DNA of 64,000 nucleotides from Escherichia coli (GCF_002854065.1 NZ_CP024147.1); one strand, 5' to 3'. Counted from the first letter of the stretch, positions 24,685 to 54,516 are shown. A program made the numbers and translations. The notes: a model not told the origin generated them from the letters alone.

Positions 24685-24690
24685 GAGATA

Positions 24691-37306: not shown

Positions 37307-37329
37307 TGTATTATTCCTTTATTTATCTC

Positions 37330-38361: not shown

Positions 38362-38577
38362 AAATTCCTCACTGGTCAGGTAGACACCTCGGAAGCATTT
38401 AAGCGGTTTTAATTGTTATTATTTGTGATGAAGATCACGTCAGAAAATTGTTACATTACTATGTTACGCATAACGTGATGTGCCTTGTAATTCTTATCAG
38501 CAGAAATAAAAAAACGTGAAATTATTATGCCACCAGGCGTAGTATCGCAGCAGGTAAGATGATTCAGGAGATTTTAA

Positions 38578-39141: not shown

Positions 39142-39144
39142 TTT

Positions 39145-40164
39145 TCAAAAATCGGCTTTCAACACCACGCGGTAACGCGCCTTACCGTCGCGCACATGCT
39201 GGATGGCGTCGTTAATTTTCGACATCGGGAACAATTCGGTAGTCGGCGCAACCTTGCTGCGGGCGGCAAAACGCATCAGCTTACGCAACTCATAAGGCGT
39301 GCCAGTAGCAGAGCCAGAGACACTGCGATCGCCCGCAATTAACGTAAAGGCCGGAACAGACAGCGGCGTGAGAACCGCACCGACCGTATGGAAATTACCG
39401 CCATACGTCAGCGCCTCAAAATAAGGCTGCCAGTCGAGGCTGACGTTCACAGTATTGATAATGAGATCAAACTGCCCCGCCAGAGTTTTCAGTGCCTGCG
39501 GATCGCGGCTATTCACCACTTTATCGGCACCCATCGCCAGTACTTCCTGCTCTTTCGCCGGATTTGAACTAAAGGCTGTCACCTCGCATCCCATTGCGTG
39601 CAGAAGTTTTATAGCGATATGCCCCAGCCCGCCAATACCAATTACCCCAACGCGGCTGGTAGCAGTGATATGGTGCATCAATAGTGGTTTAAAGACCGTG
39701 ATACCGCCGCACAACAGCGGCCCGGCGGACTCGATATCAATATTTTCTGGCAGTGGAATCACCCATTGCCAGTCCGCACGCAACTTCTCGGCAAAGCCAC
39801 CGCGATTCATAATCGTCGGCACCGCACCTTGCTCGCAGTTGATCTGATTACCGCTAATACAGGCGTCGCAGTGACCACAGCTACGCGCCGTCCAGCCAAT
39901 CCCGACACGCTGACCGACCTGCAAACCTTTATCCTGCGCGGCGCTCCCGAGTGCCACCACGCGCCCAATCACCTCATGCCCGGCAACCAGCGGATACTGT
40001 GAAAATCCCCATTCGTTATCGATCATCGACAGATCGGAATGGCAGATCCCGCAGTAATCCACCTGCACTTCAATATCTTGTGGCTTCAGCTCACCGGGAT
40101 CGTACTCATAAACTTCCAGTTCGCCGCCCGCTTCTTTTGCGGCATAGCTTTTTATCATCGACAT
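39145..40164 (-). CDS. ahr: NADPH-dependent aldehyde reductase Ahr (YjgB), Zn-dependent MDR
   Basis: MDR motifs GHEVIG and CGHCDAC; start placed at [11 protein letters not shown]. Confidence 0.85.
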
Positions 40165-40359: not shown

Positions 40360-40444
40360 GCCGAAGTGGCGAAATCGGTAGACGCAGTTGATTCAAAATC
40401 AACCGTAGAAATACGTGCCGGTTCGAGTCCGGCCTTCGGCACCA
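40360..40444 (+). tRNA. leuX: tRNA-Leu (anticodon CAA)
   Basis: GCCGAAGTGGCGAAATCGGTAGACGCAGTTGATTCAAAATCAACCGTAGAAATACGTGCCGGTTCGAGTCCGGCCTTCGGCACCA: cloverleaf with long variable arm, anticodon loop tTCAAaa, 3' CCA. Confidence 0.95.
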
Positions 40445-40481: not shown

Positions 40482-40642
40482 GTGCCTGAAATCCAGTATC
40501 CGCAAGGCTTTCCTCGCTTTTTCACTCAACCTAAGTCAACCTGATTCAATTTACATCAACTTACTGATGCGGGTACAACTGCGGGTATATCGCGGTTCGA
40601 TAATGTTTGTACCCACACAGAACCCTTGAAAGGATACTCATC

Positions 40643-41899
40643 ATGGCTCTGAGTGATGTGAAGGTTCGTTCGGCTAAGCCTGAAGCAAAAGCCTATAAAC
40701 TTACTGATGGTGACGGTTTGGTTTTGCTGGTTCACCCGAATGGCTCAAAATACTGGCGGCTGCGTTATCGTTTTGGCGGTAAGGAGAAGATGCTGGCGCT
40801 TGGGAAATACCCTGAAGTGTCGCTGGCGGATGCCCGGGCACGCCGGGATGAAGCTCGTAAGCTGTTAGCTAATGGCGTCGATCCCAGTGAGAACAAGAAA
40901 GCCGTTAAGGTAGAGCAGGAGCAAGAGGCGATAACGTTTGAATTGGTTGCCAGAGACTGGCACGCCAGCAATCAGAAGTGGTCTGCATCGCATAGAGCTC
41001 GAGTATTGAAAAGCCTCGAAGATAATCTCTTTGCTGCTATCGGTAAGCGGAACATTGCAGAACTGAAAACGCGAGACCTACTTGTACCCATCAAAGCGGT
41101 GGAATCATCCGGGCGACTCGAAGTCGCCGCCCGTTTACAGCAGCGAACTACTGCGATTATGCGCTTTGCCGTTCAGAGCGGCTTAATCGACTATAACCCC
41201 GCACAAGAGATTGCCGGTGCGGTAGCTACGGCGAAAAGACAACATCGTGCTGCTCTGGAACTTAATCGCATTCCTGAATTACTTCACCGCATTGATCACT
41301 ATTCTGGCAGGCCGTTAACTCGACTGGCGGTTGAACTCACTTTGTTGGTTTTCATCCGTTCAAGCGAGCTGCGTTTTGCTCGCTGGTCAGAAGTGGATTT
41401 TGATACTGCCATGTGGACGATTCCAGGGGAGCGTGAACCGCTGGAAGGCGTTAAACATTCTCAGCGTGGTTCAAAGATGCGGACTCCCCATCTTGTTCCT
41501 TTGTCGCGGCAGGCTCTGGCTATTTTGGAAAAGATCAAAAGCATGAATGGGAGCCGTGACCTGATCTTCGTAGGAGATCACGATCCGCGTAAGCCAATGA
41601 GTGAGAATACGCTTAATAAGGCCTTGCGAGTAATGGGCTATGACACGAAAACGGAAGTGTGTGGGCATGGTTTCAGGACGATGGCGTGTAGCTCATTGAT
41701 TGAATCGGGTTTGTGGTCGAGAGATGCGGTGGAAAGGCAGATGAGCCATCAAGAGCGTAGCTCTGTGCGTGCGGCGTATATTCATAAGGCGGAACATTTG
41801 GGAGAACGCAGGTTGATGCTGCAGTGGTGGGCTGATTTTCTTGATGCAAATCGTGAGAAGGCGATGAGTCCATTTGATTTTGCCAAACTTAGGCGGTGA
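40643..41899 (+). CDS. intB: P4-type (IntB-like) tyrosine integrase at the leuX island border
   Basis: About 418-aa ORF with N-terminal DUF4102-like region (KAYKLTDGDGLVLLVHPNGSKYWRLRYRFGGKEK) and C-terminal HGFR/Tyr recombinase motifs; immediately 3' of a tRNA gene. Confidence 0.88.
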   Translation: MALSDVKVRSAKPEAKAYKLTDGDGLVLLVHPNGSKYWRLRYRFGGKEKMLALGKYPEVSLADARARRDEARKLLANGVDPSENKKAVKVEQEQEAITFELVARDWHASNQKWSASHRARVLKSLEDNLFAAIGKRNIAELKTRDLLVPIKAVESSGRLEVAARLQQRTTAIMRFAVQSGLIDYNPAQEIAGAVATAKRQHRAALELNRIPELLHRIDHYSGRPLTRLAVELTLLVFIRSSELRFARWSEVDFDTAMWTIPGEREPLEGVKHSQRGSKMRTPHLVPLSRQALAILEKIKSMNGSRDLIFVGDHDPRKPMSENTLNKALRVMGYDTKTEVCGHGFRTMACSSLIESGLWSRDAVERQMSHQERSSVRAAYIHKAEHLGERRLMLQWWADFLDANREKAMSPFDFAKLRR

Positions 41900-42229: not shown

Positions 42230-45200
42230 ATGGATGCTTTAAGGGCTACAACATCGACAAATTTCAGTTTTCTCGCTGAACATGACCCGCTGTTTCTACA
42301 AATCGCCACTGCTGCAGAAAACGCCTTCTCAGGCGATCCCAACACCACCTTGATTAAGTTGCGCCAACTAGGTGAAGCCTTAGCACAACATATTGCTGCG
42401 CTGGTCGGGATCACGTTTGATGAACCGCCCACTCAGGCTGATTTACTCTACCGCCTCAATCGCGAGCTAAAATTTGAACCCACGGTACTCGAGCTATTTC
42501 ATCTATTGCGGATAGAGGGCAACAAGGCCACTCACCAGTTCAAAACCAAGCACAAAGAGGCGCTAGATGGCTTAAAAGTGGCGCGAGCGCTAGCTATCTG
42601 GTTCCACCAATCTTTCGGCAAGCAGGGCGCGGCCTTTAAACCCGGCGCTTTTATTGCTCCTCCAGACCCGAGCAATCAGCTTAGGCAACTCCAAACGGAA
42701 ATCGATCGCCTCAAAAGTGAGCTCACTACCGCCAACATACAGCTAGATTCCAGCCAACAGCTGCAAAATTTGCTGGTGCAGGAAAAGAGTGAATATGAAG
42801 CGCTGGCGTTAGCCATGGATGATGAAACTAAGGTGTTAGCATCGCAGGCGAAAGAGCAGGAAATTGCACTCGAACAGCTTCGACAGCAATACGAAGAAAA
42901 ATTAAAAATCCTGCAAGCGCAACTGACCGAAAAAGATGAAAAGCAGGCCCGAACACAACGGCGAGAGTTTGCCCAGAAGAGCCGCCGTGCCAGCCAACAT
43001 ATCGCGTTAAATGAAGAACTCACCCGTATATTGATTGACCAAAACTTAAATGATGCGGGCTGGCTTGCTGACAGTCAGGAACTGACCTGGGCTAACGGAA
43101 CTCGCCCTGAAAAGGGGATAAACAAAGCCATTGCCGAATGGCCTACGGAGTATCAGGGTAAAAAAGGTCGCGCTGATTACGTTCTATTTTGCGGCTTAAC
43201 TCCGCTGGCCACGGTCGAAGCCAAAAAAGAAAACACCGATGTTGCGGGAAAAATTCCGCAGGCAGAACGCTACAGCAAAGGCTTCAAAATCACGTCCCCC
43301 ATGATTGGCGCATGGGAGCGGGAAGGCCGAACCATTGCATGGGCGGATGAGACTGACGGGCATTATATTATCCCGTTTGTATACTCCTGCAACGGTCGCC
43401 CCTACGTGCCACAGTTGGCTGAGTCATCAGGAACTTGGTTCCGGGACGTGCGCGAACCGTCCAACATCCGCCGTGCGCTGCAAAAGTTTCATACCCCGCA
43501 AGGCTTGCTGGATAAACTCGAACGCAGCAAAGACAGCGCCGAACAGAAGCTAAAGCAAGAAGGCTTCGCTTACCTCCGGTTACGCGATTATCAGCAAAAG
43601 GCCATTCTCGCCGTTGAAAGCACATTGGCGCAAAACATCCGCAATGCCCTTCTGGCGATGGCGACCGGCACCGGGAAAACACGCACCATTGTTGGTCTAA
43701 TGTACCGTTTTCTGAAAACTGAACGCTTCAAGCGCATCCTCTTTCTGGTTGACCGTACGGCTTTGGGCGAGCAAGCCACGGACACCTTCAAAGAAGCGCC
43801 GTTGGAGCAAAACCAGACGCTGTCTCAGATTTACAATATCGCTGAGCTCGGCGATATGGCTACACAGGCAGAAACCCGAGTACAGGTCGCGACGGTACAG
43901 GCCATGGTTAGCCGCATTTTTTCCTCGGACACACCACCGCCGGTGGATGAATTTGACTGCATCATCGTTGATGAAGCCCACCGAGGCTACACCTTAGATC
44001 AGGAAATGACTGAAGGGGAACTCTCGACCCGCGACGCCAGCCAATATCTCTCCAGCTACCGTCGGGTGCTCGATTATTTCGACGCGGTAAAAATCGGCCT
44101 TACCGCCACTCCGGCGAAACATACCAGCGATATCTTCGGCAAACCGATTTACATCTACTCCTACCGTGAAGCCGTGGCGGATGATTGGCTTATCGATCAT
44201 GAACCTCCAATCCGTTATGAAACGCTGCTGACGCAAAATGGCATCCACTTTGACAAAGGGAGCCAGGTGCATGCCATTAATATCCACACCGGAGAGGTTG
44301 AGATTGATCAGCTAGAAGACGAAGTGGATTTCAACGTTGATGCATTTAACCGTGGCGTCATCAGTGAAAACTTTAATCGGGTTATTTGCCAACAGCTCGT
44401 GAAAGAGCTCGATCCCTTTGGCGAAGAGAAAACGCTGGTTTTCTGCGTTACAGACAAACATGCCGACATGGTCAAACGCTTGCTGGATGAAGCGTTCTCT
44501 GCTGAATATGAAAACTATAATCAAGCGGCCGTCGAGAAAATCACCGGTGAAAGTGACAAAGTCAAACAGTTGATCAAACAGTATAAAAATGAACGCTATC
44601 CGAATATTGCAATCACCGTTGATTTGCTTAGCACCGGCATTGACGTGCCGAAGATTTGTAATCTGGTTTTCATGCGTCGGGTGAAGTCACGTATTTTATT
44701 TGAACAGATGATAGGCCGCGCAACACGCCGCTGTGATGACATTGGCAAAACGGTCTTCCGTATTTACGATCCAGTAGATATTTATGAGGCTCTCAGTGAC
44801 GTTAACACCATGAAACCGCTGGTCAAAGACCCCAATATCACACTTGAACAATTGGTCGGCGAGCTAACCGATACTGAACAGCTCGAAAAAGCGCTCAACA
44901 GCCCCGGTGAACATACAGGTGAAACTCAGGCTGATGTGGTGCTCAGCCAGTTAAGCCAAAAGGTGATGCGCATCCTACGTAAGGCGGAGAAACGGGCAGA
45001 AAATCGCCCAGTGGTGAAACAAAAATTGGCTGACCTCCATCAACTGTGGGGCGTTGAGCCAAAACAGCTGCATCAACATCTGCATCACTTAGGGCCGCGT
45101 CAGGCGGCAGCCTTCATCCAACAACAGCAAGGGCTAATCTGCCAGCTCAACGAGATAGCTACATTACTCGGAAGTGAATACCGGCCGATTATTTCTGAGC

Positions 45201-45754
45201 ATCATGACCAACTACAGGAACGTAACCAGAGCTACGGTAGCCATCAGCGGCCAGAAGATTACCTGGAAAGCTTTGCGGATTTTATTCAGCAGCAGCTTAA
45301 CCAATCCACTGCGCTGGCCGTGGTTGTCAACAAACCCCGCGACCTCACTCGTGAACAGCTTAAAGAGATCCGCTTATTATTAGACGGTGCGGGCTATTCC
45401 GAAGCTAATCTACAAACCGCCGTGCGTAATCAAACCAATCAGGATATCGCCGCCAGCATTGTCGGCCACATTCGCCGTGCTGCACTAGGGGAGCCTCTTG
45501 TGCCTTTTGCACAGCGCGTATCACAGGCAATGATCAACATTTATAACAGCCGCGCATGGACAACCCAGCAACGAAAATGGCTGGATCGTCTGGCAAAACA
45601 GCTGGTTCATGAAGTGATCATTGATCACCAATTTATTAACAATAGTTTTGCTGATGATGGCGGCGTAAAACAGCTCAATAAGATATTGGTAGACCAACTG
45701 GACAGCGTGCTGGATGAACTTAACGGTGCGATATGGCCACAACAAAGCGCCTGA
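42230..45754 (+). CDS. hsdR: Type I restriction enzyme R subunit (nuclease/helicase)
   Basis: 1174-aa ORF; PD-(D/E)xK-type motif (RADYVLF...VEAKK), SF2 helicase motif I (AMATGTGKT) and motif II (IIVDEAHRG); N-terminal coiled-coil segment. Confidence 0.9.
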   Translation: MDALRATTSTNFSFLAEHDPLFLQIATAAENAFSGDPNTTLIKLRQLGEALAQHIAALVGITFDEPPTQADLLYRLNRELKFEPTVLELFHLLRIEGNKATHQFKTKHKEALDGLKVARALAIWFHQSFGKQGAAFKPGAFIAPPDPSNQLRQLQTEIDRLKSELTTANIQLDSSQQLQNLLVQEKSEYEALALAMDDETKVLASQAKEQEIALEQLRQQYEEKLKILQAQLTEKDEKQARTQRREFAQKSRRASQHIALNEELTRILIDQNLNDAGWLADSQELTWANGTRPEKGINKAIAEWPTEYQGKKGRADYVLFCGLTPLATVEAKKENTDVAGKIPQAERYSKGFKITSPMIGAWEREGRTIAWADETDGHYIIPFVYSCNGRPYVPQLAESSGTWFRDVREPSNIRRALQKFHTPQGLLDKLERSKDSAEQKLKQEGFAYLRLRDYQQKAILAVESTLAQNIRNALLAMATGTGKTRTIVGLMYRFLKTERFKRILFLVDRTALGEQATDTFKEAPLEQNQTLSQIYNIAELGDMATQAETRVQVATVQAMVSRIFSSDTPPPVDEFDCIIVDEAHRGYTLDQEMTEGELSTRDASQYLSSYRRVLDYFDAVKIGLTATPAKHTSDIFGKPIYIYSYREAVADDWLIDHEPPIRYETLLTQNGIHFDKGSQVHAINIHTGEVEIDQLEDEVDFNVDAFNRGVISENFNRVICQQLVKELDPFGEEKTLVFCVTDKHADMVKRLLDEAFSAEYENYNQAAVEKITGESDKVKQLIKQYKNERYPNIAITVDLLSTGIDVPKICNLVFMRRVKSRILFEQMIGRATRRCDDIGKTVFRIYDPVDIYEALSDVNTMKPLVKDPNITLEQLVGELTDTEQLEKALNSPGEHTGETQADVVLSQLSQKVMRILRKAEKRAENRPVVKQKLADLHQLWGVEPKQLHQHLHHLGPRQAAAFIQQQQGLICQLNEIATLLGSEYRPIISEHHDQLQERNQSYGSHQRPEDYLESFADFIQQQLNQSTALAVVVNKPRDLTREQLKEIRLLLDGAGYSEANLQTAVRNQTNQDIAASIVGHIRRAALGEPLVPFAQRVSQAMINIYNSRAWTTQQRKWLDRLAKQLVHEVIIDHQFINNSFADDGGVKQLNKILVDQLDSVLDELNGAIWPQQSA

Positions 45755-45833
45755 TTCTGGTAAAATTCGCTAGCGAAACACGCCTTTTTAATCGCGCTTG
45801 CGGCATATTTCGCGAGCGAATGCAGGAAAAATA

Positions 45834-47402
45834 ATGAGTAATAATAACGATATCGTACAAAAACTGTGGAACCTGTGTGATGTACTGCGTGATGACGGCA
45901 TCAACTACAGCGATTACGTCACCGAACTAGTGCTACTACTGTTTATCAAAATGGTGCATGAAAATACCGAAGCAGAATTATTAGATCAGCACACTTTACC
46001 GCAGGGCTGCCGCTGGAGCGATCTCAACAGTTTATCGGGCCTCAACTTGCTTAACCATTACAAACAAATGCTGTTGAAGCTCTCCAGCGGCAAAGACGCT
46101 GAAGGTAATTCGGTTCATGCTGACCCGCTGATTAGCGCCATTTATGACGATGCGCAGACCCGCCTGCGTGAGCCTCGTCATCTCGAACAGATGATCCGCA
46201 CCCTCGACCAAATTGACTGGTTTAGTGCTAAAAAAGACGGTCTCGGTGATCTTTATGAAGGTCTGCTGGAGAAAAACGCCGGAGAAACAAAATCTGGCGC
46301 AGGTCAATATTTTACGCCGCGGGCCTTAATTAACAGCATGGTACGCTGCATTAAGCCACAGGCTGGAGAAGTGATCCAAGATCCCGCTGCGGGCACCGCA
46401 GGGTTTTTGATTGCCGCCGATCAATACATCAAGCAACAAACTGACAACCTCTACGACCTTACTGCCAAAGCGAGAACCTTTCAAAAAAATAAAGCCTTTA
46501 TTGGTGTGGAACTGGTTCCGTCTACGCGCCGCCTGGCACTGATGAACTGCCTGCTACACGGCATCGAAGGGGATGACGAAGGCGTCGTGCATCAGGGCAA
46601 CGCGTTGGGCATGGTGGGTGCTAGCTTGCCCAAGGCCGATATCATTCTTGCTAACCCGCCGTTCGGTACGGCGAAAGGCGGTGAAGCCAGCATTACTCGT
46701 GATGACTTAACCTACCCAACTAGTAACAAACAGCTAGCGTTTTTACAGCATATCTACCGTAACTTAAAACCGGGTGGCCGTGCAGCTGTGGTGCTACCCG
46801 ACAACGTCCTGTTTGAAGCGGGTGTTGGCACCGATGTACGCCGCGACCTTATGAACAAATGTAACCTGCACACCATTTTACGTTTACCCACCGGGATTTT
46901 TTACGCCCAAGGGGTGAAAACCAACGTTTTGTTCTTCACCAAAGGCAGCGCCAACAACAAACATCAGGATGAAAATTGTACCGAAAACGTCTGGATCTAT
47001 GATCTGCGTAGTAACATGCCAAGCTTTGGCAAACGCACCCCGTTTGGTGAGCAACATTTAAAACCCTTTGAAGCGGTTTACGGCGACGATGCCAACGGTC
47101 AAAGCCCACGCAGTGAAGGGGAATGGAGTTTTAACTCCGACAAACTTGACGTGCCCGATAACGCCGAAAATCAGCACGTTGACAACCGCATGGCGACCAG
47201 CCGTTGGCGCACATTCAGCCGTGAATGGATCCGCGATGTTAAAGGTGATTCATTAGATATTGCATGGCTGAAAGATAACAACAGCGTTGATGTGACTAAC
47301 CTGCCTGAACCTAGTGTATTAGCGATTGAAGCAAAAGAAGAATTAACCACTGCTTTAGCAGAACTGGATGCTTTATTGACTTTATTAGGAGCAACTCGCT
47401 GA
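45834..47402 (+). CDS. hsdM: Type I restriction-modification N6-adenine DNA methyltransferase subunit
   Basis: N-terminal HsdM_N-like sequence (DIVQKLWNLCDVLRDDG), motif I DPAAGTAGFL, catalytic NPPF; start at the ATG with AGGA RBS. Confidence 0.9.
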   Translation: MSNNNDIVQKLWNLCDVLRDDGINYSDYVTELVLLLFIKMVHENTEAELLDQHTLPQGCRWSDLNSLSGLNLLNHYKQMLLKLSSGKDAEGNSVHADPLISAIYDDAQTRLREPRHLEQMIRTLDQIDWFSAKKDGLGDLYEGLLEKNAGETKSGAGQYFTPRALINSMVRCIKPQAGEVIQDPAAGTAGFLIAADQYIKQQTDNLYDLTAKARTFQKNKAFIGVELVPSTRRLALMNCLLHGIEGDDEGVVHQGNALGMVGASLPKADIILANPPFGTAKGGEASITRDDLTYPTSNKQLAFLQHIYRNLKPGGRAAVVLPDNVLFEAGVGTDVRRDLMNKCNLHTILRLPTGIFYAQGVKTNVLFFTKGSANNKHQDENCTENVWIYDLRSNMPSFGKRTPFGEQHLKPFEAVYGDDANGQSPRSEGEWSFNSDKLDVPDNAENQHVDNRMATSRWRTFSREWIRDVKGDSLDIAWLKDNNSVDVTNLPEPSVLAIEAKEELTTALAELDALLTLLGATR

Positions 47403-48778
47403 TGAGTAAGATTATTCTACCTGAAGGGTGGTCCAATTGTACTCTTGCAGATATTGCTGAAGTTAACCCTAAAAAAATAGAGGCTGAACCTGACATAATT
47501 GCAGGCTTTGTTCCTATGTCTCATGCCCCAACAAACTATTACGGGAAATTAGAGTTTGAAGAAAAGACTTGGGGTGAAATTGGTAAATCTTACACTAACT
47601 TTAAAAATGATGATGTGATTTTTGCAAAAGTAACGCCTTGTTTTGAAAATGGTAAAGCAGCAATTGTAAAAGATATGCCAAATAATATCGGTGCAGGCAG
47701 CTCTGAATTTTATGTTCTACGCGCTCGTAATCAAGAGATACCAGCCAGTTATTTACTTGGGATTATTAAGACCAGAAAATTTATGCAGGAAGGTGCAGAA
47801 AATATGACAGGTGCTGTTGGTCTGCGCCGTGTTCCAAGGGCTTTCGTTGAAAGCTTTCCTTTGATACTTCCCCCTCTTGCAGAACATAAAATCATCGCCG
47901 ATAAACTCGATATTCTGTTAGCACAGGTCGAAAGCGCCAAAGCACGCCTTGAGCAAATACCACAAATCCTGAAGCGTTTTCGTCAAGCGGTGTTGGCATC
48001 TGCGGTGAGTGGAAAATTAATACCAAAGGATCAAAAGTCCAATGTACGATTTGATGTCTCAGTTGGTTCACTTTGTATAACTTCGTTTGATGGCCCTTTT
48101 GGGTCAAAATTAAAAACGGCTGATTATACAAATGCGGGTGTTCGTGTCGCTCGACTAGAAAATATTGGTCATTTAACATTTAATGATGAAAAAGAAACGT
48201 ATATCAGCGATACAAAATTTAATAGCCTAAAAGGAAATAAGCTCGAAAAGGATGATGTGTTATTCTCATCATTTGTAGATGAAGATGTTCGTGTATGTCT
48301 TTTTCCACATAACGATAAAATTTTTATAAACAAGGCAGATTGTTTTTGTTTAAGGATCAATCAAGAAATAGCATCACCAAAATATGTAGCTTTAACATTA
48401 GCAAGCAGAACTTCGTATGAACAAATTAAAGCACAGGTTCAAGGTGTAACACGACCTCGTATTAATTTAAAGACGTTAAGGTCTTTGTCGTTTACGTTTC
48501 CTTCTCTACAAGAACAAAACGAAATTGTTCGCCGCGTAGAACAACTCTTCGCCTATGCTGATGGCATCGAAAAGCAGGTACACAACGCCCTTGAGTGCGT
48601 CAACAACCTCACACAGTCGATTCTGGCTAAAGCATTTCGTGGGGAACTCACGGCGCAATGGCGTGCAGAAAATCCCGATTTAATTAGTGGTGAAAATAGC
48701 GCACAAGCATTACTGGTGAAAATTCAACAGCAGCGCAAAAACATAAAAAATATCAAACGCAACAAGGGTAATAATTGA
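47402..48778 (+). CDS. hsdS: Type I restriction-modification specificity subunit
   Basis: 458-aa ORF, start overlaps the hsdM stop (TGATG); two target-recognition-domain halves separated by conserved helical spacers. Confidence 0.85.
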   Translation: MSKIILPEGWSNCTLADIAEVNPKKIEAEPDIIAGFVPMSHAPTNYYGKLEFEEKTWGEIGKSYTNFKNDDVIFAKVTPCFENGKAAIVKDMPNNIGAGSSEFYVLRARNQEIPASYLLGIIKTRKFMQEGAENMTGAVGLRRVPRAFVESFPLILPPLAEHKIIADKLDILLAQVESAKARLEQIPQILKRFRQAVLASAVSGKLIPKDQKSNVRFDVSVGSLCITSFDGPFGSKLKTADYTNAGVRVARLENIGHLTFNDEKETYISDTKFNSLKGNKLEKDDVLFSSFVDEDVRVCLFPHNDKIFINKADCFCLRINQEIASPKYVALTLASRTSYEQIKAQVQGVTRPRINLKTLRSLSFTFPSLQEQNEIVRRVEQLFAYADGIEKQVHNALECVNNLTQSILAKAFRGELTAQWRAENPDLISGENSAQALLVKIQQQRKNIKNIKRNKGNN

Positions 48779-50481
48779 TGCGACTGATTTCTTTAGATTT
48801 GAGAGGCAGCTACAAAGGCTTGAAAGATCAATTCTTTGACTTCAGTTATGCCCAAGATAATATAATTGCATTGATTGGCCTTAATGGTTCTGGTAAATCT
48901 CAATTGCTTGAGTTAATCGGAGAAACTTTTGCTTATCTAGAGCGATGGCAACGTGCAGAGTTCAAAAATAAAACATCGTTAGGTTTTAGCGTCGCGGTAC
49001 ACTATCAATGGGATCTTAGAAATGATAGTGCTGTTATATCTTACCCAGACGAGCTCATGAATCATGGTGAGAGCATTGAGCTAAAGGTAACTATTGAGCT
49101 TGACGGCGATGTGTTTTTAAATGTTCGTGGTACTTATGAGTGGCATGTAATACAGCTTGGTGAGCGCCATTTCCCCATCCCTCTCGTGGTTGGTTATGCT
49201 TCGGGGCTAAACGAAAATTTACAGCGAAGTTTTATGAAAAATGCTGTGCAATATTTTGAAGTCCGTCGAATTAGTAGCCAGCGTCTAAAAATGCTATCAC
49301 GAGAAATTAATGATGAACAGTTGGCTGAAATCAATAAGAAGTATCTTAAAAAATACCCACACATATTTGATCCTTTATCAGAAGGTGATTTTTTTCCAAA
49401 TTATCACCTGAATTTGAGAGAAGTGAATCCTGCCCCTAGCAATTTTAACTATCTTGATTACGATAATATTGGGCTCTTAATTTTATCGCTATCGATTCTT
49501 CCGGCTGGGACAGTATTTCAACTATTAGATGAAATAACATATAAACATCCTGTCAAAGCTGTACTTCATTACGACTTTCGTTCTGGCATCATAGAAGATG
49601 ATGCCATTCGTGATGTGAAAATGTTGATCCGTATAGCAGGCTCCGATCAAGTAAGGCCAACAGGAGGCCGAACTACAGATAACCAGTATGAACTTTATGA
49701 GTTAGAATATCTGTCTGGAGAAATCACTCTCGAATTAAGTGATGAGGCTGTTTTAAACCGACTTCGTGAAGATAACTACTTTGATTCTTTCGCATTATTT
49801 AAAAGACTTAATAATATTCAACAGCTTGGCATAAAGAACTGGGATCGTACATCTCGTTTGAAATTGATGAAAGATGATTTTATAGGTACGGTAAAAAAAC
49901 CGCTTCAGTCAAGGTTACCTTTATCTGTTGTTGAGTTATTAATGGCTAATGAACAGGGCGATACCGTGAAGTTTGATGATTTATCTGACGGTGAAGCTCA
50001 ATTGATTCAGGTTGTTGCCGCAACAAGGATATTCAGTCAGGTTCAAGCGCTATTTCTTTTTGATGAGCCAGAAACACACCTTAATCCGTCTTGGCGTACC
50101 TATTTTCATCAGCGTTTAACTGAAGCATTTACACCTGGAAATGAGAGGAAAGGTCAATCGCAATTCTTTCTATCTACTCACTCACCATTCATGATTTCCT
50201 CGCTCAAACGCGAGAATGTATTTTTCTTCGAGCGTAGTGATATGGGTTGTATCAGTATGGAACCGGTGTCCAGCCAGACTTATGGCACATCATTTGATGT
50301 CTTGGTTAAGAACCACTACGGTCTGCGTTCCCTTATTTCACAGACAGTGGTGAAGGATGTTAAAAATCGATTACCAGAAGATAATAATCCTGAAGCAGTT
50401 ATAGCTGCGCGACTCTGGATTGAGGAAAATCTGGGAGAATCAATGGAAAAGGCTTATCTGCTAAGGAAACTAGATAGCTAA
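48778..50481 (+). CDS. ABC/SMC-like P-loop ATPase (AAA_15/AAA_21-like), candidate defence ATPase (Septu PtuA-like)
   Basis: Walker A GLNGSGKS near the N-terminus; signature-like LSDGEAQL, Walker B LFLFDEPETHLNP and H-loop STHSP near the C-terminus; start overlaps the hsdS stop. Confidence 0.7.
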   Translation: MRLISLDLRGSYKGLKDQFFDFSYAQDNIIALIGLNGSGKSQLLELIGETFAYLERWQRAEFKNKTSLGFSVAVHYQWDLRNDSAVISYPDELMNHGESIELKVTIELDGDVFLNVRGTYEWHVIQLGERHFPIPLVVGYASGLNENLQRSFMKNAVQYFEVRRISSQRLKMLSREINDEQLAEINKKYLKKYPHIFDPLSEGDFFPNYHLNLREVNPAPSNFNYLDYDNIGLLILSLSILPAGTVFQLLDEITYKHPVKAVLHYDFRSGIIEDDAIRDVKMLIRIAGSDQVRPTGGRTTDNQYELYELEYLSGEITLELSDEAVLNRLREDNYFDSFALFKRLNNIQQLGIKNWDRTSRLKLMKDDFIGTVKKPLQSRLPLSVVELLMANEQGDTVKFDDLSDGEAQLIQVVAATRIFSQVQALFLFDEPETHLNPSWRTYFHQRLTEAFTPGNERKGQSQFFLSTHSPFMISSLKRENVFFFERSDMGCISMEPVSSQTYGTSFDVLVKNHYGLRSLISQTVVKDVKNRLPEDNNPEAVIAARLWIEENLGESMEKAYLLRKLDS

Positions 50482-51647
50482 TGTTATTTTCACTTAATCC
50501 ACAGACGCCTCAATGTTCGGTATTTGCATTTCTTAATGCTGAATTTCTTCATTTTTTGCAAGCTACTATTAATGCTGATGTATTCTCAGAAAACTTATTC
50601 CGCACTTTTCCTGAGATGATTGAAGATACAGAAGTACTTGTCCCTAGTGTATGTTGGAGTAATGAGCCCACAAGAGAGAAATTTCTTGGGTTATGGGAAG
50701 CGCGGCCTACGACCGTTGCGCAGCGACGGGAGTTGTCAGACCAAATAAGTCAGGCTCAGGATATTAATGTATTTTTCAACAATACCCAAGCTGTATTGCC
50801 GCAATTAGTACCAGCCTCTTTATTCGAAGCATGTAAGGCGTTAACAACTCATTTGTTTACACGTACCAAAGATCTAGCTCAAGCAAAGTCACAATCCAAT
50901 AGTTCTATTGAAAAACATTATCAGAATTTCGTCAGAGAAAATAATAATAGCCATCTATGTCCTATTTGTGGCACTGCACTTCTCTCTCAAAATCGAGAAA
51001 GCGTAGCAGAGGAAGAACAATGGCGATCAGATTATGACCACATTCTTTGCAAAGATAAATATCCAGTTTACAGTGTCCATCCAGGAAACTTCATTCCGAC
51101 TTGCCATATTTGTAATAGTAAAGCTAAAGGGGCAAGGGACTTACTGAATACTGTTGGTCTCCAGAGACGATTAGCATTTTATCCACTTCCCCCATCACAA
51201 GAGTCATGTGAGCAATTTGTTGTGGTATCGCTTCACCTCAGTGACCGTAGAGATTTAATTGTGAATAGTTGGGAAACACCGTTGGAGTCAGCATCCATTT
51301 TATTCCCCAGAGCTCCAGCTGACATAGTAGATAAAATAGGTGTATGGAAAGAAGTTTATAAAGTACCAGAAAGAGTTGAACAGCATCTTAAGGTCAACTT
51401 TTGCGAGCGTATAGCCGCTGATCTACGACCAGTAAGCTTTGATGATTTCTGTGAGCAATTACATAGATATTCGAGACAAATGCCAGCAGACTATAGAAAA
51501 TCGGAATGGAGGTTTTGGTGGCAGAAAGTCTATGAATTCTTATCAGATCAAAATAGAGACTATTTACACGATGTGTGGATATTAATTGCCTGGAAATTAA
51601 GGTTATCAAATGATGCTGATATGGCTGATACGTTTAATCAAATTTAA
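50481..51647 (+). CDS. HNH-endonuclease-domain protein, partner of the upstream ATPase (Septu PtuB-like)
   Basis: Central motif CPICG...DYDHILCKDKYP...NFIPTCHICNSKAKG (CxxC...DH...N...CxxCN); start overlaps the ATPase stop (TAATG). Confidence 0.65.
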   Translation: MLFSLNPQTPQCSVFAFLNAEFLHFLQATINADVFSENLFRTFPEMIEDTEVLVPSVCWSNEPTREKFLGLWEARPTTVAQRRELSDQISQAQDINVFFNNTQAVLPQLVPASLFEACKALTTHLFTRTKDLAQAKSQSNSSIEKHYQNFVRENNNSHLCPICGTALLSQNRESVAEEEQWRSDYDHILCKDKYPVYSVHPGNFIPTCHICNSKAKGARDLLNTVGLQRRLAFYPLPPSQESCEQFVVVSLHLSDRRDLIVNSWETPLESASILFPRAPADIVDKIGVWKEVYKVPERVEQHLKVNFCERIAADLRPVSFDDFCEQLHRYSRQMPADYRKSEWRFWWQKVYEFLSDQNRDYLHDVWILIAWKLRLSNDADMADTFNQI

Positions 51648-51661
51648 ATTTTACTTCAACA

Positions 51662-51691
51662 GGGTGAGAGTATTGTTACTCTCCCTTTTTA
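51662..51691. terminator. Hairpin plus T-run between convergent HNH gene and nuclease-motif gene
   Basis: GGGTGAGAGTAttgtTACTCTCCC followed by TTTTT; overlaps the last codons of the minus-strand gene. Confidence 0.5.
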
Positions 51692-52848
51692 AAATACATT
51701 GTAGAAGGTGCGCTTATTACTACGCAACCATCAATGCCTTTTATCTTCAATACCCCTTCCTTGAATTTAACATGTTCTTGTGTTGCTCGAGTGCAGTCCC
51801 ACAGGAAGCTGATGATATACGAATCCTTATATTTTTCGTCGACACGATAAAGTGACGCATCTTCTGCAATTTCTCCTATTAGTGCAGGAAACGATTTTTT
51901 TGTATCTTTTCGGTATTTTACTTCAATAATTGTGTGCAGTGATGGCAGATAAAGGTCTATGCGGGGGTTTTTTTGTCCGACAGGCTGAAGATTCACCTCA
52001 TCTGCAATATCGTTGAATATTGGCGCAAGTAGGATATAAAGCAGATTCTGAACATGATATTCATTTTCAACTTGCCACTTTACGGGCTCTGCGCCTCTGG
52101 TTCGACCTGAGTCCTCCCATGTCCATCGTTTTAACCCTGCAGGGATATGTTCCAGAAATCCTAGCAGGTCATCCAGTGTCCATCCAGACGGTGGAGCAAT
52201 GGCAATTTCCTGATTAATTTGATTAAAAACGTAAAGCATTACACACAAGAGAGTAACTGAAGGATTTTCTGTAGCTTGTGCTTGAAATTCGCTCATGAAA
52301 CGTCCGACAAGAGAAAGTCGGTTCTGATGACTATTGATCTTCAATAACTTTCGATAATGAAGGAAGAGTGGTATGCAGGCACTACTAAAGGAGGCTGATT
52401 CGCTGTTACCGACATATGCCGCGATATCTTTCTCGAAGATACTTAGATGGTTGCTTTCAATTTGCTGAGCCAGAAACCCTGAAATCCACTTTTCGAACTC
52501 GTGATTTATGCTCTCATCTTGCATCTGTGCCGTTAGCCATTTCACTGCCATTACACCGAACATATCCGATACCCAAGGTCTCGGTGTTGAATCAATCTTG
52601 GGAGCTTGTCCGAGCAGGCGAGAGACATCCTGGACCGAGACAGTTTCATCTAGAATACCTAAACCTGAAATTGCACAGCGTTGGTATAAAGATAGGTCCG
52701 CAAAGCTAAAATTCGTAATGCAGCTTTTATCTCCTTCCAGGAGACTAAAAAAGCAGGACTTAAATGGATCAATGTGAGCGGATTCGATCACCTTACTGTG
52801 AAAATAGTCGCGTAGCTGATAAACGTTTTCTTTCTCTATAGGAACCAT
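51676..52848 (-). CDS. Predicted PD-(D/E)xK-motif nuclease, candidate effector partner of the upstream Argonaute
   Basis: 390-aa ORF; C-terminal motif ...RIDLYLPSLHTIIEVKY (D-x(n)-E-x-K) preceded by a helix with conserved Glu; start overlaps the pAgo stop by 13 nt. Confidence 0.55.
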   Translation of the reverse strand: MVPIEKENVYQLRDYFHSKVIESAHIDPFKSCFFSLLEGDKSCITNFSFADLSLYQRCAISGLGILDETVSVQDVSRLLGQAPKIDSTPRPWVSDMFGVMAVKWLTAQMQDESINHEFEKWISGFLAQQIESNHLSIFEKDIAAYVGNSESASFSSACIPLFLHYRKLLKINSHQNRLSLVGRFMSEFQAQATENPSVTLLCVMLYVFNQINQEIAIAPPSGWTLDDLLGFLEHIPAGLKRWTWEDSGRTRGAEPVKWQVENEYHVQNLLYILLAPIFNDIADEVNLQPVGQKNPRIDLYLPSLHTIIEVKYRKDTKKSFPALIGEIAEDASLYRVDEKYKDSYIISFLWDCTRATQEHVKFKEGVLKIKGIDGCVVISAPSTMYFKKGE

Positions 52849-53175
52849 TGTGAATGCCCTATTTTTCCAATCATGACTGAGTCACTCCAGCCCGGAAGCT
52901 GATTCAACCATCCTAAATTATGGGCGATAAGATCGGAATAAGTGATGGTAACTGGCATGGGATTGGGGAAGTAACTACGCCAGGAGTGTGATGCGAAACT
53001 GTAGAGCTGAGCACTCAAATACTTAATATCTTTGAAGGTCGAGTCTTTATGAACGTTGACGATCACACCACGTGGATGACCGTCCGTTTCTTGTCGTAAT
53101 TCACGTTGGCCGATCAGGTAAACAAGCATTTCGTTTTTAGAAAGCTTAAACGTATTTCCGCGATGTGTCGCCAGG

Positions 53176-53180
53176 CGTCC
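53176..53180. repeat. IS2 target-site duplication, left copy (CGTCC)
   Basis: Identical 5 bp directly flanking both IS2 ends. Confidence 0.85.
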
Positions 53181-53271
53181 TAGACTGGCCCCCTGAATCT
53201 CCAGACAACCAATATCACTTAAATAAGTGATAGTCTTAATACTAGTTTTTAGACTAGTCATTGGAGAACAG

Positions 53272-53637
53272 ATGATTGATGTCTTAGGGCCGGAGAAACG
53301 CAGACGGCGTACCACACAGGAAAAGATCGCAATTGTTCAGCAGAGCTTTGAACCGGGGATGACGGTCTCCCTCGTTGCCCGGCAACATGGTGTAGCAGCC
53401 AGCCAGTTATTTCTCTGGCGTAAGCAATACCAGGAAGGAAGTCTTACTGCTGTCGCCGCCGGAGAACAGGTTGTTCCTGCCTCTGAACTTGCTGCCGCCA
53501 TGAAGCAGATTAAAGAACTCCAGCGCCTGCTCGGCAAGAAAACGATGGAAAATGAACTCCTCAAAGAAGCCGTTGAATATGGACGGGCAAAAAAGTGGAT
53601 AGCGCACGCGCCCTTATTGCCCGGGGATGGGGAGTAA
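53272..53637 (+). CDS. insC: IS2 OrfA (InsC, HTH protein)
   Basis: 121-aa sequence [26 protein letters not shown]... recognised as IS2 InsC. Confidence 0.9.
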
Positions 53638-54500
53638 GCTTAGTCAGCCGTTGTCTCCGGGTGTCGCGTGCGCAGTTGCACGTCATTCTCAGACGAACCG
53701 ATGACTGGATGGATGGCCGCCGCAGTCGTCACACTGATGATACGGATGTGCTTCTCCGTATACACCATGTTATCGGAGAGCTGCCCACGTATGGTTATCG
53801 TCGGGTATGGGCGCTGCTTCGCAGACAGGCAGAACTTGATGGTATGCCTGCGATCAATGCCAAACGTGTTTACCGGATCATGCGCCAGAATGCGCTGTTG
53901 CTTGAGCGAAAACCTGCTGTACCGCCATCGAAACGGGCACATACAGGCAGAGTGGCCGTGAAAGAAAGCAATCAGCGATGGTGCTCTGACGGGTTCGAGT
54001 TCTGCTGTGATAACGGAGAGAGACTGCGTGTCACGTTCGCGCTGGACTGCTGTGATCGTGAGGCACTGCACTGGGCGGTCACTACCGGCGGCTTCAACAG
54101 TGAAACAGTACAGGACGTCATGCTGGGAGCGGTGGAACGCCGCTTCGGCAACGATCTTCCGTCGTCTCCAGTGGAGTGGCTGACGGATAATGGTTCATGC
54201 TACCGGGCTAATGAAACACGCCAGTTCGCCCGGATGTTGGGACTTGAACCGAAGAACACGGCGGTGCGGAGTCCGGAGAGTAACGGAATAGCAGAGAGCT
54301 TCGTGAAAACGATAAAGCGTGACTACATCAGTATCATGCCCAAACCAGACGGGTTAACGGCAGCAAAGAACCTTGCAGAGGCGTTCGAGCATTATAACGA
54401 ATGGCATCCGCATAGTGCGCTGGGTTATCGCTCGCCACGGGAATATCTGCGGCAGCGGGCTTGTAATGGGTTAAGTGATAACAGATGTCTGGAAATATAG
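53595..54500 (+). CDS. insD: IS2 OrfB (InsD, DDE transposase; expressed as an OrfAB fusion by -1 frameshift)
   Basis: 301-aa ORF overlapping insC in the -1 frame; DDE integrase-core-like sequence. Confidence 0.9.
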
Positions 54501-54511
54501 GGGCAAATCCA

Positions 54512-54516
54512 CGTCC
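54512..54516. repeat. IS2 target-site duplication, right copy (CGTCC)
   Basis: Identical 5 bp directly flanking both IS2 ends. Confidence 0.85.

What the first reader, a model, noticed from the sequence alone, without database searches (positions are those of the whole stretch)
45834..51647. Four-gene translationally coupled operon: hsdM, hsdS, ATPase, HNH
Each junction overlaps stop and start codons: hsdM/hsdS (TGATG-type), hsdS/ATPase (TGATG) and ATPase/HNH (TAATG). Such tight coupling suggests co-expression and possibly functional linkage between type I modification and the ATPase-HNH module, for example a restriction-alleviation-proof second line or an R-M-associated abortive system, rather than chance adjacency.
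Basis: seen in the sequence. Interest (0 to 1): 0.55.

Follow-up and report, generated by a model that had tools for sequence, protein, structure and literature searches.

The report
Restriction operon carrying Septu-like nuclease pair
A type I restriction-modification operon on an E. coli genomic island ends with an ATPase and an HNH nuclease related to the Septu anti-phage system. Comparison with other bacteria, including natural fusions of this ATPase to the DNA-specificity subunit, indicates that the pair works with the restriction system rather than merely next to it.

Summary
hsdM (45834-47402), hsdS (47402-48778), an ABC-type ATPase (48778-50481) and an HNH protein (50481-51647) are joined by TGATG, TGATG and TAATG overlaps. 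hsdR lies 79 nt upstream, and a terminator-like hairpin follows the last gene.

The two extra genes resemble the Septu pair PtuA/PtuB. The ATPase matches PtuA profiles, and PtuA chains are its best structural neighbours. The HNH protein has no Pfam match, but its confident model matches PtuB and nothing else comparably.

The linkage is not chance. All 24 loci carrying this HNH family have hsdS upstream on the same strand. Distant relatives in five phyla repeat the arrangement beside unrelated type I families.

In at least 15 protein clusters HsdS is fused to this ATPase. Four such loci read [HsdS-ATPase]-partner-hsdM with no hsdR in the fetched DNA; in three the partner belongs to this HNH family.

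The pair is optional for the restriction system: sister hsdRMS cassettes carry other defence genes at the same position.

Best reading: a PtuAB-type effector recruited by the HsdM/HsdS core. The trigger and the substrate are unknown. I rate it a new variant of a known kind, of moderately high interest.

The parts
40360..40444 (+). tRNA-Leu(CAA) (leuX), the integration site of the island that carries the cassette (context)
   Evidence: ARAGORN, Rfam tRNA, and the annotation of the twin locus
40607..41899 (+). Tyrosine integrase of the island (context)
   Evidence: NCBIfam NF007246 integrase domain, E 1e-77, 261.5 bits, below the curated cut-off of 434. Annotated as tyrosine-type recombinase/integrase in NZ_CP178662.1
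42230..45754 (+). hsdR, the type I restriction endonuclease/translocase subunit (1174 aa), first gene of the conserved five-gene cassette
   Evidence: NCBIfam NF008521: 1615.7 bits against a cut-off of 729. PADLOC REase_I 2e-269. 40% identical to EcoKI HsdR. Present upstream in 22 of 23 core-family loci with enough DNA
45755..45833 (+). 79-nt hsdR-hsdM spacer, the presumed site of the promoter for hsdM-hsdS-ATPase-HNH (inferred by analogy with EcoKI Pmod). Contains two near-palindromes, TTCGCTAGCGAA (45766-45777) and TTCGCGAGCGAA (45809-45820)
   Evidence: Sequence. A spacer of 16-150 nt is present in 18 of 25 loci. The palindromes are kept only approximately in Phytobacter and Buttiauxella and not in other genera. 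The consensus scan found no sigma-70 match here
45834..47402 (+). hsdM, N6-adenine DNA methyltransferase subunit (522 aa, NPPF motif)
   Evidence: PADLOC MTase_I 2e-223. 59% identical to EcoKI HsdM over the full length. Sequence ...ILANPPFG...
47402..48778 (+). hsdS, specificity subunit (458 aa). Its start overlaps the hsdM stop by 1 nt
   Evidence: PADLOC Specificity_I 1.9e-151. NCBIfam NF007278: 318 bits, below the cut-off of 662, as expected for variable target-recognition domains. Junction sequence
48778..50481 (+). ABC-type (Rad50/SMC-like) ATPase, PtuA-like, 567 aa. Walker A G34-x-N36-G37-x-G39-K40-S41, signature S403-D404-G405, Walker B D429-E430, H-loop H468. Its start overlaps the hsdS stop by 1 nt
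50481..51647 (+). PtuB-fold HNH nuclease with extra N- and C-terminal regions, 388 aa. Motif C160-x2-C163 ... D186-H187 ... N203 ... C208-x2-C211-N212. Its start overlaps the ATPase stop by 1 nt
51666..51693 (+). Terminator-like hairpin (GAGAGTATTGTTACTCTC) followed by a T-run, the probable end of the operon. It lies between convergent genes
   Evidence: Consensus scan and sequence

Best explanation
The four genes are one transcription unit. Together with hsdR 79 nt upstream they form a mobile five-gene cassette on a leuX island.

hsdR, hsdM and hsdS encode a complete type I restriction-modification enzyme of an EcoKI-like but distinct lineage. The last two genes encode an ABC ATPase and an HNH nuclease of the PtuA/PtuB (Septu) type.

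I propose that this pair is not an autonomous neighbour. I read it as an effector arm recruited by the methyltransferase core (HsdM2-HsdS), most likely by the ATPase docking on HsdS. This would parallel type I-A retrons, which recruited PtuAB as the effector of a reverse-transcriptase/msDNA sensor.

In this reading the M-S core supplies the signal that separates foreign from self. The more likely signal is engagement of unmethylated recognition sites; the alternative is blockage of the core by an anti-restriction DNA mimic. The ATPase acts as the nucleotide-controlled switch, and the HNH nuclease carries out the damage. The target could be DNA, or a tRNA as shown for Septu and Retron-Eco7.

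Shown here: gene content, junctions, homology and fold, conserved synteny, purifying selection, the existence of HsdS-ATPase fusions, and loci without hsdR in the fetched DNA.

Inferred: co-transcription, physical docking, the trigger and the substrate.
For: 1. Identity of the pair.
- PtuA profile 5e-44.
- PDB sequence hits only to PtuA chains.
- Catalytic motifs of both proteins are invariant.

2. Exclusive linkage.
- 24 of 24 core-family loci have hsdS upstream on the same strand. hsdM is present wherever the DNA reaches, and hsdR in 22 of 23. HNH identity falls to 29% across these loci.
- The two exceptions (L023, L038) are deletion remnants still abutting hsd fragments.

3. The same order recurs with unrelated type I families (HsdR 27-30% identical) in Phormidium, Syntrophorhabdus and Viridilinea. 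It also appears in a marine metagenome contig and in Priestia and Sphingobium plasmids.

4. Fusion evidence.
- At least 15 clusters of 984-1180 aa combine Methylase_S with AAA_15/AAA_21. Identity falls to 24%, and they come from four data sources.
- The window ATPase aligns over its full length to their ATPase half, E 7e-40 and 4e-35.
- The partners in L043, L046 and L048 belong to the window's HNH family, E 1e-33 to 1e-39.

5. In L043, L046, L047 and L048 the order is [S-ATPase]-partner-hsdM, with no HsdR-like sequence in up to 8-9 kb on either side. All four hsdM copies keep NPPF. L011 and the Priestia plasmid have hsdM-hsdS-ATPase-HNH without hsdR nearby.

6. Divergence of HsdR and HsdM tracks that of the ATPase and HNH (Mantel r about 0.9, p <= 0.0005). 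One locus (L035) combines lineages, so the association was rebuilt after an exchange.

7. Published precedent.
- PtuAB is co-opted by retrons and cleaves tRNA-Tyr (PMC12673091, PMC13096335, PMC11555353).
- PrrC is held by a type I enzyme (PMC12707154).
- ABC-ATPase defence systems are triggered by anti-restriction proteins (bioRxiv 10.1101/2024.01.29.577857).
Against: - Canonical Septu works as a two-gene system without any R-M genes (PMC13096335), so autonomy is the default expectation for a PtuAB-like pair.
- The position 3' of hsdS is a general cargo site. Sister cassettes with HsdR 64-73% identical carry other genes there: canonical Septu plus PDC-S02 in L032, and a GIY-YIG candidate (PDC-S14) in L033. 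The third, L034 (Caballeronia), has no match to this ATPase or HNH family downstream of hsdS, and its ORFs there were not searched against any family library.
- In 5 of 27 loci other genes are inserted between hsdS and the ATPase, and two more have gaps of 76-122 nt.
- G+C falls from about 0.50 (hsdR, hsdM) to about 0.38-0.40 (3' part of hsdS, ATPase, HNH). Synonymous divergence among enterobacterial copies is ten-fold higher in the HNH gene than in hsdR. The cassette is therefore a mosaic.
- 'No hsdR' rests on limited flanks of metagenome contigs; hsdR could lie elsewhere.
- The loci are related by descent, so the counts overstate independent events, and host phylogeny confounds the Mantel test.
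- No experiment, transcript or protein-protein prediction was available.
Confidence: 0.6

Rival explanations
1. Autonomous Septu-like system that hitch-hikes. The ATPase-HNH pair senses infection and acts on its own, as canonical Septu does. It sits at the 3' end of the hsdMS operon only because that position is a recombination and cargo hotspot, and because it borrows the hsdM promoter and the cassette's mobility. There is no physical or signalling link to the type I enzyme.
For: - Septu works as two genes (PMC13096335).
- The same slot holds canonical Septu or PDC-S14 in sister cassettes. PDC-M04 is inserted between hsdS and the pair in L005, and SoFic lies between hsdR and hsdM in L006 and L009.
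- Insertions or gaps separate hsdS from the ATPase in 7 of 27 loci.
- The G+C shift and the mosaic synonymous divergence point to separate histories.
- Payne et al. describe frequent embedding of independent systems in type I loci (bioRxiv 10.1101/2024.01.29.577857).
Against: - Every intact member of the family found is next to hsdS. Payne et al. report that only 0.7% of Septu systems are embedded in Hma, but give no Septu figure for type I loci.
- The association recurs with unrelated type I families in several phyla.
- Repeated HsdS-ATPase fusions are hard to explain without a joint function.
- Compact [S-ATPase]-HNH-hsdM loci lack any other nuclease.
Confidence: 0.25
2. PrrC/PARIS-like guardian. 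The pair is held inactive by the intact type I complex, or uses the M-S core as bait. It is released when a phage anti-restriction protein (Ocr, ArdA or Stp-like) blocks the enzyme. The HNH nuclease then cleaves a tRNA or DNA and aborts the infection. This is a sub-case of functional coupling and is the reader's 'second line' idea.
For: - PrrC, an ABC-ATPase-type anticodon nuclease, is found almost only inside type I loci and is triggered by Stp.
- PARIS and Gabija, which are ABC ATPase plus nuclease systems, are triggered by Ocr.
- Septu and Retron-Eco7 PtuAB cleave tRNA-Tyr.
- The ATPase also matches AriA profiles, 1e-20.
- The linkage and the fusions described above.
Against: - In loci where no hsdR was found there is no restriction activity to guard, yet hsdM keeps its catalytic NPPF motif in 4 of 4. 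That fits a methylation-dependent self/non-self role better than a pure bait.
- No trigger data exist.
- The HNH partner is not a HEPN or Toprim effector like those of PrrC or PARIS.
Confidence: 0.25
3. Chance adjacency of unrelated genes in a defence island, with overlapping codons arising only from genome compaction.
For: The island is a defence island: a pAgo system is convergent just downstream. One-base overlaps are common in bacterial operons.
Against: Conserved order and junction geometry in more than 30 loci across phyla, co-divergence, and fusions.
Confidence: 0.02

Closest known systems
Septu (PtuA ATPase + PtuB HNH nuclease; Doron et al. 2018; structures 8EE4/8EE7) and the PtuAB effectors of type I-A retrons (Ec78/Eco7, Ec83)
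   Same: - A two-gene ATPase-then-HNH module with overlapping codons.
- An ABC/SMC-like ATPase with intact Walker A/B, signature and H-loop.
- PtuA chains are the best PDB matches by sequence and by fold.
- The HNH partner has the PtuB fold.
- As in retrons, the pair is attached to a separate sensor-like module.
   Different: - Sequence similarity to canonical PtuA is limited to the N- and C-terminal ATPase motifs: 32% over 152 aa against the PDLC00293-type PtuA of L032.
- NCBIfam PtuA scores 44 bits against a cut-off of 500.
- The nuclease is 388 aa against about 210-290 aa. It matches PtuB profiles only at 1e-7 and does not align with the PtuB of L032.
- It was never found without hsdS.
- Some relatives are fused to HsdS.
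TIGR04435 'restriction system-associated AAA family ATPase' (NCBIfam hypothetical equivalog)
   Same: - Same length (568-position profile) and collinear over the C-terminal 260 residues.
- Proteins that sources name this way sit directly after hsdS and before a 340-380 aa unnamed protein of the window's HNH family.
- They include HsdS fusions that align over the full length with the window ATPase.
   Different: The window ATPase scores 170 bits, below the curated cut-off of 300, so it is a sister subfamily and PGAP names it only 'AAA family ATPase'. The family name records an association, not a function. I found no paper on it.
PrrC / EcoprrI (anticodon nuclease embedded in a type IC locus)
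   Same: An ABC-ATPase-based effector encoded within a type I hsd locus and found almost only there. It offers a model of an R-M-held latent nuclease.
   Different: - PrrC is one polypeptide (ATPase fused to a HEPN-type anticodon nuclease) placed between hsdS and hsdR.
- Here there are two proteins with an HNH nuclease, placed after hsdS.
- There is no sequence relationship beyond the ATPase class.
- The trigger here is unknown.
PADLOC candidate systems PDC-M01 and PDC-M62 (ATPase + HNH-like pairs found by 'guilt-by-embedding', untested)
   Same: The same two-gene logic. The window's HNH motif region matches PDC-M62B (3e-12) and PDC-M01B (1e-9). The candidates were derived from cassettes embedded in BREX, DISARM or type I loci.
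   Different: - The matches cover only about 70-85 residues around the HNH motif. The ATPase matches PDC-M62A at 6e-16, against 5e-44 for PtuA.
- True PDC-M01 pairs (L027, L030) had no hsd genes nearby.
- The window pair is appended after hsdS rather than embedded between hsd genes.
EcoKI-type (type IA) restriction-modification systems
   Same: Gene order hsdR-hsdM-hsdS with a spacer before hsdM. HsdR meets the NF008521 equivalog cut-off. HsdM is 59% identical to EcoKI HsdM.
   Different: - HsdR is only 40% identical to EcoKI HsdR.
- The cassette is on a leuX island, not in the K-12 immigration control region.
- It carries two extra genes.
- It is present in 1 of 5,426 complete E. coli genomes.

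Membership tests
Type I restriction-modification system | HsdR with helicase/translocase and nuclease domains | tested here: met
   NF008521: 1615.7 bits against a cut-off of 729. PADLOC REase_I 2e-269 over the full length
Type I restriction-modification system | HsdM N6-adenine methyltransferase with the NPPF/Y catalytic motif | tested here: met
   PADLOC MTase_I 2e-223, NPPF in the sequence, 59% identity to EcoKI HsdM
Type I restriction-modification system | HsdS with two target-recognition domains and conserved regions | tested here: met
   PADLOC Specificity_I 1.9e-151 over 1-455. The NCBIfam equivalog NF007278 scores below its cut-off (318 against 662), as expected for variable recognition domains
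Type I restriction-modification system | Assignment to a complementation family (IA-IE) | not testable with these tools
   Only similarity is available: EcoKI-like gene order, HsdR 40% and HsdM 59% identical to EcoKI
Septu (PtuA/PtuB) | ABC-type ATPase PtuA with intact nucleotide-binding motifs | tested here: met
Septu (PtuA/PtuB) | PtuB HNH nuclease encoded immediately downstream | tested here: met
Septu (PtuA/PtuB) | The two genes suffice for defence (autonomous system) | not testable with these tools
   Genomic context argues against autonomy: always next to hsdS, and HsdS fusions exist. No experiment was possible
TIGR04435 restriction system-associated AAA family ATPase | Score at or above the curated cut-off (300 bits) | tested here: not met
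   170.3 bits, two stretches, residues 305-565. Full-length BLASTP homology to proteins that carry this name, E 4e-35
PrrC-type R-M guardian | Single polypeptide: ABC ATPase fused to an anticodon-nuclease (HEPN-type) domain | tested here: not met
   Two separate proteins. The effector has the PtuB/HNH fold. There is no PrrC hit among the PADLOC matches listed
PrrC-type R-M guardian | Held latent by the type I enzyme and released by an anti-restriction factor | not testable with these tools
   Only indirect evidence: exclusive linkage to hsdS and HsdS fusions
PARIS (AriA/AriB) | AriA ATPase paired with the AriB Toprim (DUF4435) nuclease | tested here: not met
   AriA profile 1.3e-20, weaker than PtuA. 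The partner is an HNH protein, not Toprim
MADS (methylation-associated defence system) | MAD2, MAD3 and MAD5 equivalogs at curated cut-offs, plus the further mad genes | tested here: not met
   MAD2 92 against 720 bits, MAD3 20.7 against 420, MAD5 21 against 400
PADLOC PDC-M62 / PDC-M01 | Full-length matches of both proteins to the A and B profiles | tested here: not met
   The B profiles match only residues 137-226 around the HNH motif. PDC-M62A matches at 6e-16 and only partially. Genuine PDC-M01 pairs score 1e-40 to 1e-94

The most novel reading that the evidence does not exclude
The ATPase-HNH pair is a second, HsdR-independent nuclease arm that docks on HsdS and is directed by the methyltransferase core.

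The compact [HsdS::ABC-ATPase]-HNH-HsdM loci would then be a previously undescribed class of restriction-modification-like systems, in which a PtuAB-type module replaces the HsdR motor-nuclease. The window's five-gene cassette would be a type I system with two different effectors sharing one specificity subunit.
Probability: 0.35. Interest if true: 0.8.

Novelty: new variant of a known kind. Interest (0 to 1): 0.6.

Why it matters
Septu-type ATPase-nuclease pairs are known as autonomous systems and as effectors captured by retrons. Type I enzymes are known to hold one guardian, PrrC.

If the coupling holds, a whole family of PtuAB-like pairs is dedicated to the type I methyltransferase core and is sometimes fused to its specificity subunit. 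That would add a second example of Septu effectors being co-opted by a different sensor. It would also give a candidate for R-M-like systems in which no HsdR was found nearby.

It offers a simple testable system: five genes from E. coli, with clear point mutants. It could address how ABC ATPases switch nucleases on in immunity, and how restriction systems are backed up against anti-restriction proteins.

For annotation, it gives a name to a 'hypothetical protein' that follows 'restriction system-associated AAA family ATPase' genes in several phyla.

Tried and rejected
- MADS, PARIS, PDC-M62 and PDC-M01 were considered because of profile hits. I rejected them as memberships on score, coverage or partner type.
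- The promoter/terminator consensus scan found nothing above shuffles inside the operon. It cannot exclude weak or non-sigma-70 promoters.
- The two near-palindromes in the hsdR-hsdM spacer looked like an operator. They are conserved only loosely in Phytobacter and Buttiauxella and not elsewhere. I did not pursue them.
- Rfam found no RNA family in the region.
- Searches of E. coli genomes, including distant blastn, found the pair in one genome only, so no within-species comparison was possible.
- A plasmid tblastn with the HNH protein found only three weak hits. This proved useful as a control, because three plasmids carry the sister hsdR without this pair.
- The look-up of P0113 failed because the exact sequence is not on record.
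- Literature: no paper mentions TIGR04435 or the two WP accessions. Krishnan et al. 2020 on ABC ATPases (PMC7544218) is not held. It may already describe R-M-linked ABC ATPases or HsdS fusions, so prior description there cannot be excluded.
- The Mantel test supports co-inheritance, but host phylogeny confounds it.

Full report
**1. The observation**

The window region holds five co-directional genes:
- hsdR, 42230-45754
- hsdM, 45834-47402
- hsdS, 47402-48778
- an ATPase, 48778-50481
- a 388-aa protein, 50481-51647

Each shares one base between stop and start, and each start is preceded by a purine-rich Shine-Dalgarno-like run inside the upstream gene. ATG 45834 is the right hsdM start because it aligns with residue 1 of EcoKI HsdM.

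A 79-nt spacer separates hsdR from hsdM. A hairpin with a T-run at 51666-51683 follows the last stop and faces a convergent gene. A consensus scan found fewer promoter-like sites than in shuffled sequence and no convincing terminator inside the operon. This is a weak test, and co-transcription and translational coupling remain inferences. No Rfam family lies in the region.

**2. Where it sits**

The stretch 45700-52000 is essentially identical to the chromosome of E. coli VTB96935v. It is found in only 1 of 5,426 complete E. coli genomes, even with distant blastn.

The cassette lies on an island at tRNA-Leu(CAA) with a tyrosine integrase. Directly downstream and convergent is a pAgo gene with a PD-(D/E)XK partner. 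G+C drops from about 0.50 in hsdR and hsdM to about 0.38-0.40 from the 3' part of hsdS onward.

**3. What the proteins are**

hsdR, hsdM and hsdS are a complete type I system.
- HsdR meets the NF008521 equivalog cut-off.
- HsdM and HsdS give full-length PADLOC matches.
- They belong to a lineage distinct from EcoKI: HsdM is 59% and HsdR 40% identical.

The ATPase is an ABC/SMC-type ATPase with invariant Walker A, signature, Walker B and H-loop motifs.
- Its best profile is a PtuA model (PDLC00293, 5e-44).
- Its only PDB sequence hits are PtuA chains.

The 388-aa protein has no Pfam or NCBIfam match.
- It carries an invariant CxxC...DH...N...CxxCN motif.
- Its model is confident (pLDDT 91.9).

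The pair is therefore PtuAB-like in architecture and fold, but divergent in sequence. It also has about 150-180 residues more than the solved PtuB chains.

**4. Is the linkage more than adjacency?**

I collected relatives of the HNH protein without reference to context: 125 clusters in the protein database, 29 genome loci and several metagenome contigs.

In all 24 loci with an intact pair of the core family, hsdS lies upstream on the same strand.
- hsdM is present wherever the DNA reaches, and hsdR in 22 of 23.
- The hosts range from Enterobacteriaceae through Vibrio, Marinobacter, Aeromonas, Shewanella and Acinetobacter to Betaproteobacteria.
- HNH identity falls to 29% while HsdR stays at 57-60%.
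- The two exceptions are deletion remnants still fused to hsd fragments (L023 and L038).

Junction geometry is conserved.
- ATPase>HNH overlaps or is within 2 nt in 25 of 27 loci.
- hsdS>ATPase overlaps in 18 of 27.

Pairwise divergence of HsdR and HsdM tracks that of the ATPase and HNH (Mantel r about 0.9, p <= 0.0005). One locus (L035) combines an hsd lineage with a distant ATPase-HNH lineage. This test is confounded by host relatedness.

All four genes are under purifying selection (dN/dS 0.05-0.15). Synonymous divergence among three enterobacterial copies rises from 0.09-0.15 in hsdR to 1.2-1.8 in the HNH gene, so the cassette is a recombination mosaic.

**5. Controls**

The pair is not needed by this type I lineage. 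Three plasmids carry HsdR 64-73% identical to the window's but lack this HNH family.
- One has a canonical Septu pair plus PDC-S02 after hsdS (PtuA 3e-157, PtuB 1e-60).
- One has a GIY-YIG candidate system.
- In the third (L034, Caballeronia) tblastn found no relative of this ATPase or HNH after hsdS. Its downstream ORFs were only listed by length, not searched against family libraries.

Other loci have PDC-M04 or unknown genes inserted between hsdS and the ATPase, or SoFic between hsdR and hsdM. The 3' end of hsdS is therefore a general cargo site. This is the main support for the rival view that the pair merely hitch-hikes.

True PDC-M01 pairs in Bacteroidales, retrieved only through the shared HNH motif, had no hsd genes nearby.

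**6. Deeper relatives and fusions**

A profile search of 1.84 billion representative proteins found 82 clusters at E <= 1e-30 and 822 at <= 1e-10. I sampled distant members.
- hsdR-hsdM-hsdS-ATPase-HNH recurs beside type I families only 27-30% identical to the window's in Phormidium, Syntrophorhabdus and Viridilinea. The Syntrophorhabdus HNH is homologous beyond the motif. The same order occurs in a marine contig.
- hsdM-hsdS-ATPase-HNH occurs on a short contig.
- On annotated plasmids of Priestia (Bacillota) and Sphingobium, PGAP names the ATPase 'restriction system-associated AAA family ATPase' and the partner 'hypothetical protein'. The partners match the HNH profile at 99.4% and 97.4% probability.

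One sampled locus encodes a 984-aa HsdS-ATPase fusion. Searching with it returned at least 15 clusters of 984-1180 aa that carry both Methylase_S and AAA_15/AAA_21 domains. Identity among them falls to 24% and they come from four data sources.

The window ATPase aligns over its full length to the ATPase half of these fusions (E 7e-40 and 4e-35). That is better than its alignment to canonical PtuA.

Four fusion loci read [S-ATPase]-partner-hsdM.
- In three the partner belongs to the window's HNH family, with an intact motif.
- All four hsdM copies keep NPPF.
- tblastn with six diverse HsdR proteins found nothing in the fetched flanks.
- Rheinheimera (L011) and the Priestia plasmid likewise lack hsdR near hsdM-hsdS-ATPase-HNH.

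**7. Interpretation**

Gene fusion of the ATPase to HsdS, exclusive co-location, and compact loci in which the HNH protein is the only nuclease found all point the same way. Together they argue that the ATPase-HNH pair acts with the HsdM-HsdS core.

Published work gives the frame.
- PtuAB is an ATP-controlled nuclease complex.
- It acts alone in Septu, and in type I-A retrons it is the effector held by an RT-msDNA sensor.
- In both cases it cleaves tRNA-Tyr (PMC13096335, PMC12673091, PMC11555353).
- PrrC is held latent by a type I enzyme and released by an anti-restriction peptide. PARIS and Gabija respond to Ocr (bioRxiv 10.1101/2024.01.29.577857, PMC12707154).

I therefore read the window's operon as a type I system whose methyltransferase core has recruited a PtuAB-type effector. 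Two modes remain open: firing on unmethylated target DNA, or firing on blockage of the core by a DNA mimic. Retention of catalytic HsdM in loci where no hsdR was found favours the first slightly. Neither the trigger nor the substrate is shown.

**8. Novelty**

The general ideas are known.
- Defence genes nest in type I loci (Payne et al.).
- An NCBIfam model already records that this ATPase class is 'restriction system-associated'.

I did not find the following described in the searchable literature:
- identification of the unnamed partner as a PtuB-fold nuclease;
- strict dedication of the family to hsdS;
- HsdS-ATPase fusions;
- three-gene loci in which no hsdR was found in the fetched DNA.

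One relevant paper (Krishnan et al. 2020) could not be read. I classify the finding as a new variant of a known kind.

**9. Limits**

- All functional statements are inferred from sequence, predicted structure and context.
- The loci share ancestry, so counts are not independent events.
- The genome scan used peptide patterns from the HNH motif.
- Absence of hsdR is limited to the DNA fetched.
- Fusion calls come mostly from metagenome assemblies, although their number and divergence make artefact unlikely.

Noticed in passing
window 53182-54511, within 52836-56403 (- strand): A 1,330-bp IS2 copy interrupts the argonaute gene of the convergent pAgo system. Its transposase ORF at 53595-54500 scores 727 bits on the IS2 TnpB model NF006918. 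The gene is intact (743 aa) in E. coli VTB96935v, so the window comes from a close relative in which this defence system is probably inactivated.
   Followed up: partly
window 51676-52848 (- strand): A 390-aa PD-(D/E)XK protein matches PADLOC 'Aga_Helical-REase Class II' (3.7e-132). It overlaps the pAgo gene start by 13 nt. This is an Argonaute-associated nuclease system directly abutting the type I/Septu-like operon.
   Followed up: no
L043 410-3364; L046 7036-10215; L047 8001-11441; L048 4134-7262: Natural HsdS-ABC ATPase fusion proteins of 984-1146 aa, followed by a 282-381 aa partner and then hsdM. No HsdR-like sequence was found in the fetched flanks. They look like compact three-gene R-M-like systems.
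   Followed up: partly
L032 12750-20501; L033 12689-13606; L005 6766-7964; L006 4323-5393; L009 3179-4345: Sister cassettes of the same hsdRMS lineage carry different defence cargo:
- an Abi-family gene or SoFic between hsdR and hsdM;
- canonical Septu plus PDC-S02, PDC-S14 (GIY-YIG) or PDC-M04 after hsdS.
This type I lineage acts as a scaffold with two insertion hotspots.
   Followed up: partly
window 45766-45777 and 45809-45820: Two 12-nt near-palindromes (TTCGCTAGCGAA and TTCGCGAGCGAA), 31 nt apart, lie in the hsdR-hsdM spacer and could be an operator. They are only loosely conserved in Phytobacter and Buttiauxella and absent in other genera.
   Followed up: partly
L001-L003 (window 42230-51647 equivalents): Synonymous divergence among three enterobacterial copies rises about ten-fold along the cassette: hsdR 0.09-0.15, ATPase 0.29-0.39, HNH 1.2-1.8. 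All dN/dS values are below 0.16. This indicates recombinational replacement of parts of the cassette.
   Followed up: partly
window 34054-39145: About 5 kb is present in the window but absent from the otherwise collinear E. coli VTB96935v chromosome, between the yjgR and ahr equivalents. It contains several ORFs of 250-440 aa on the - strand and a low-G+C kilobase at 38001-39000 (0.40).
   Followed up: no
window 19000-25000: A strongly low-G+C stretch (down to 0.31 at 20001-21000) against a background of about 0.52, suggesting another horizontally acquired segment.
   Followed up: no
L011 5315-12112: A Rheinheimera sp. locus has hsdM-hsdS-ATPase-HNH followed by an Mrr-type type IV enzyme. There is no hsdR within 5 kb upstream or 10 kb downstream.
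   Followed up: partly
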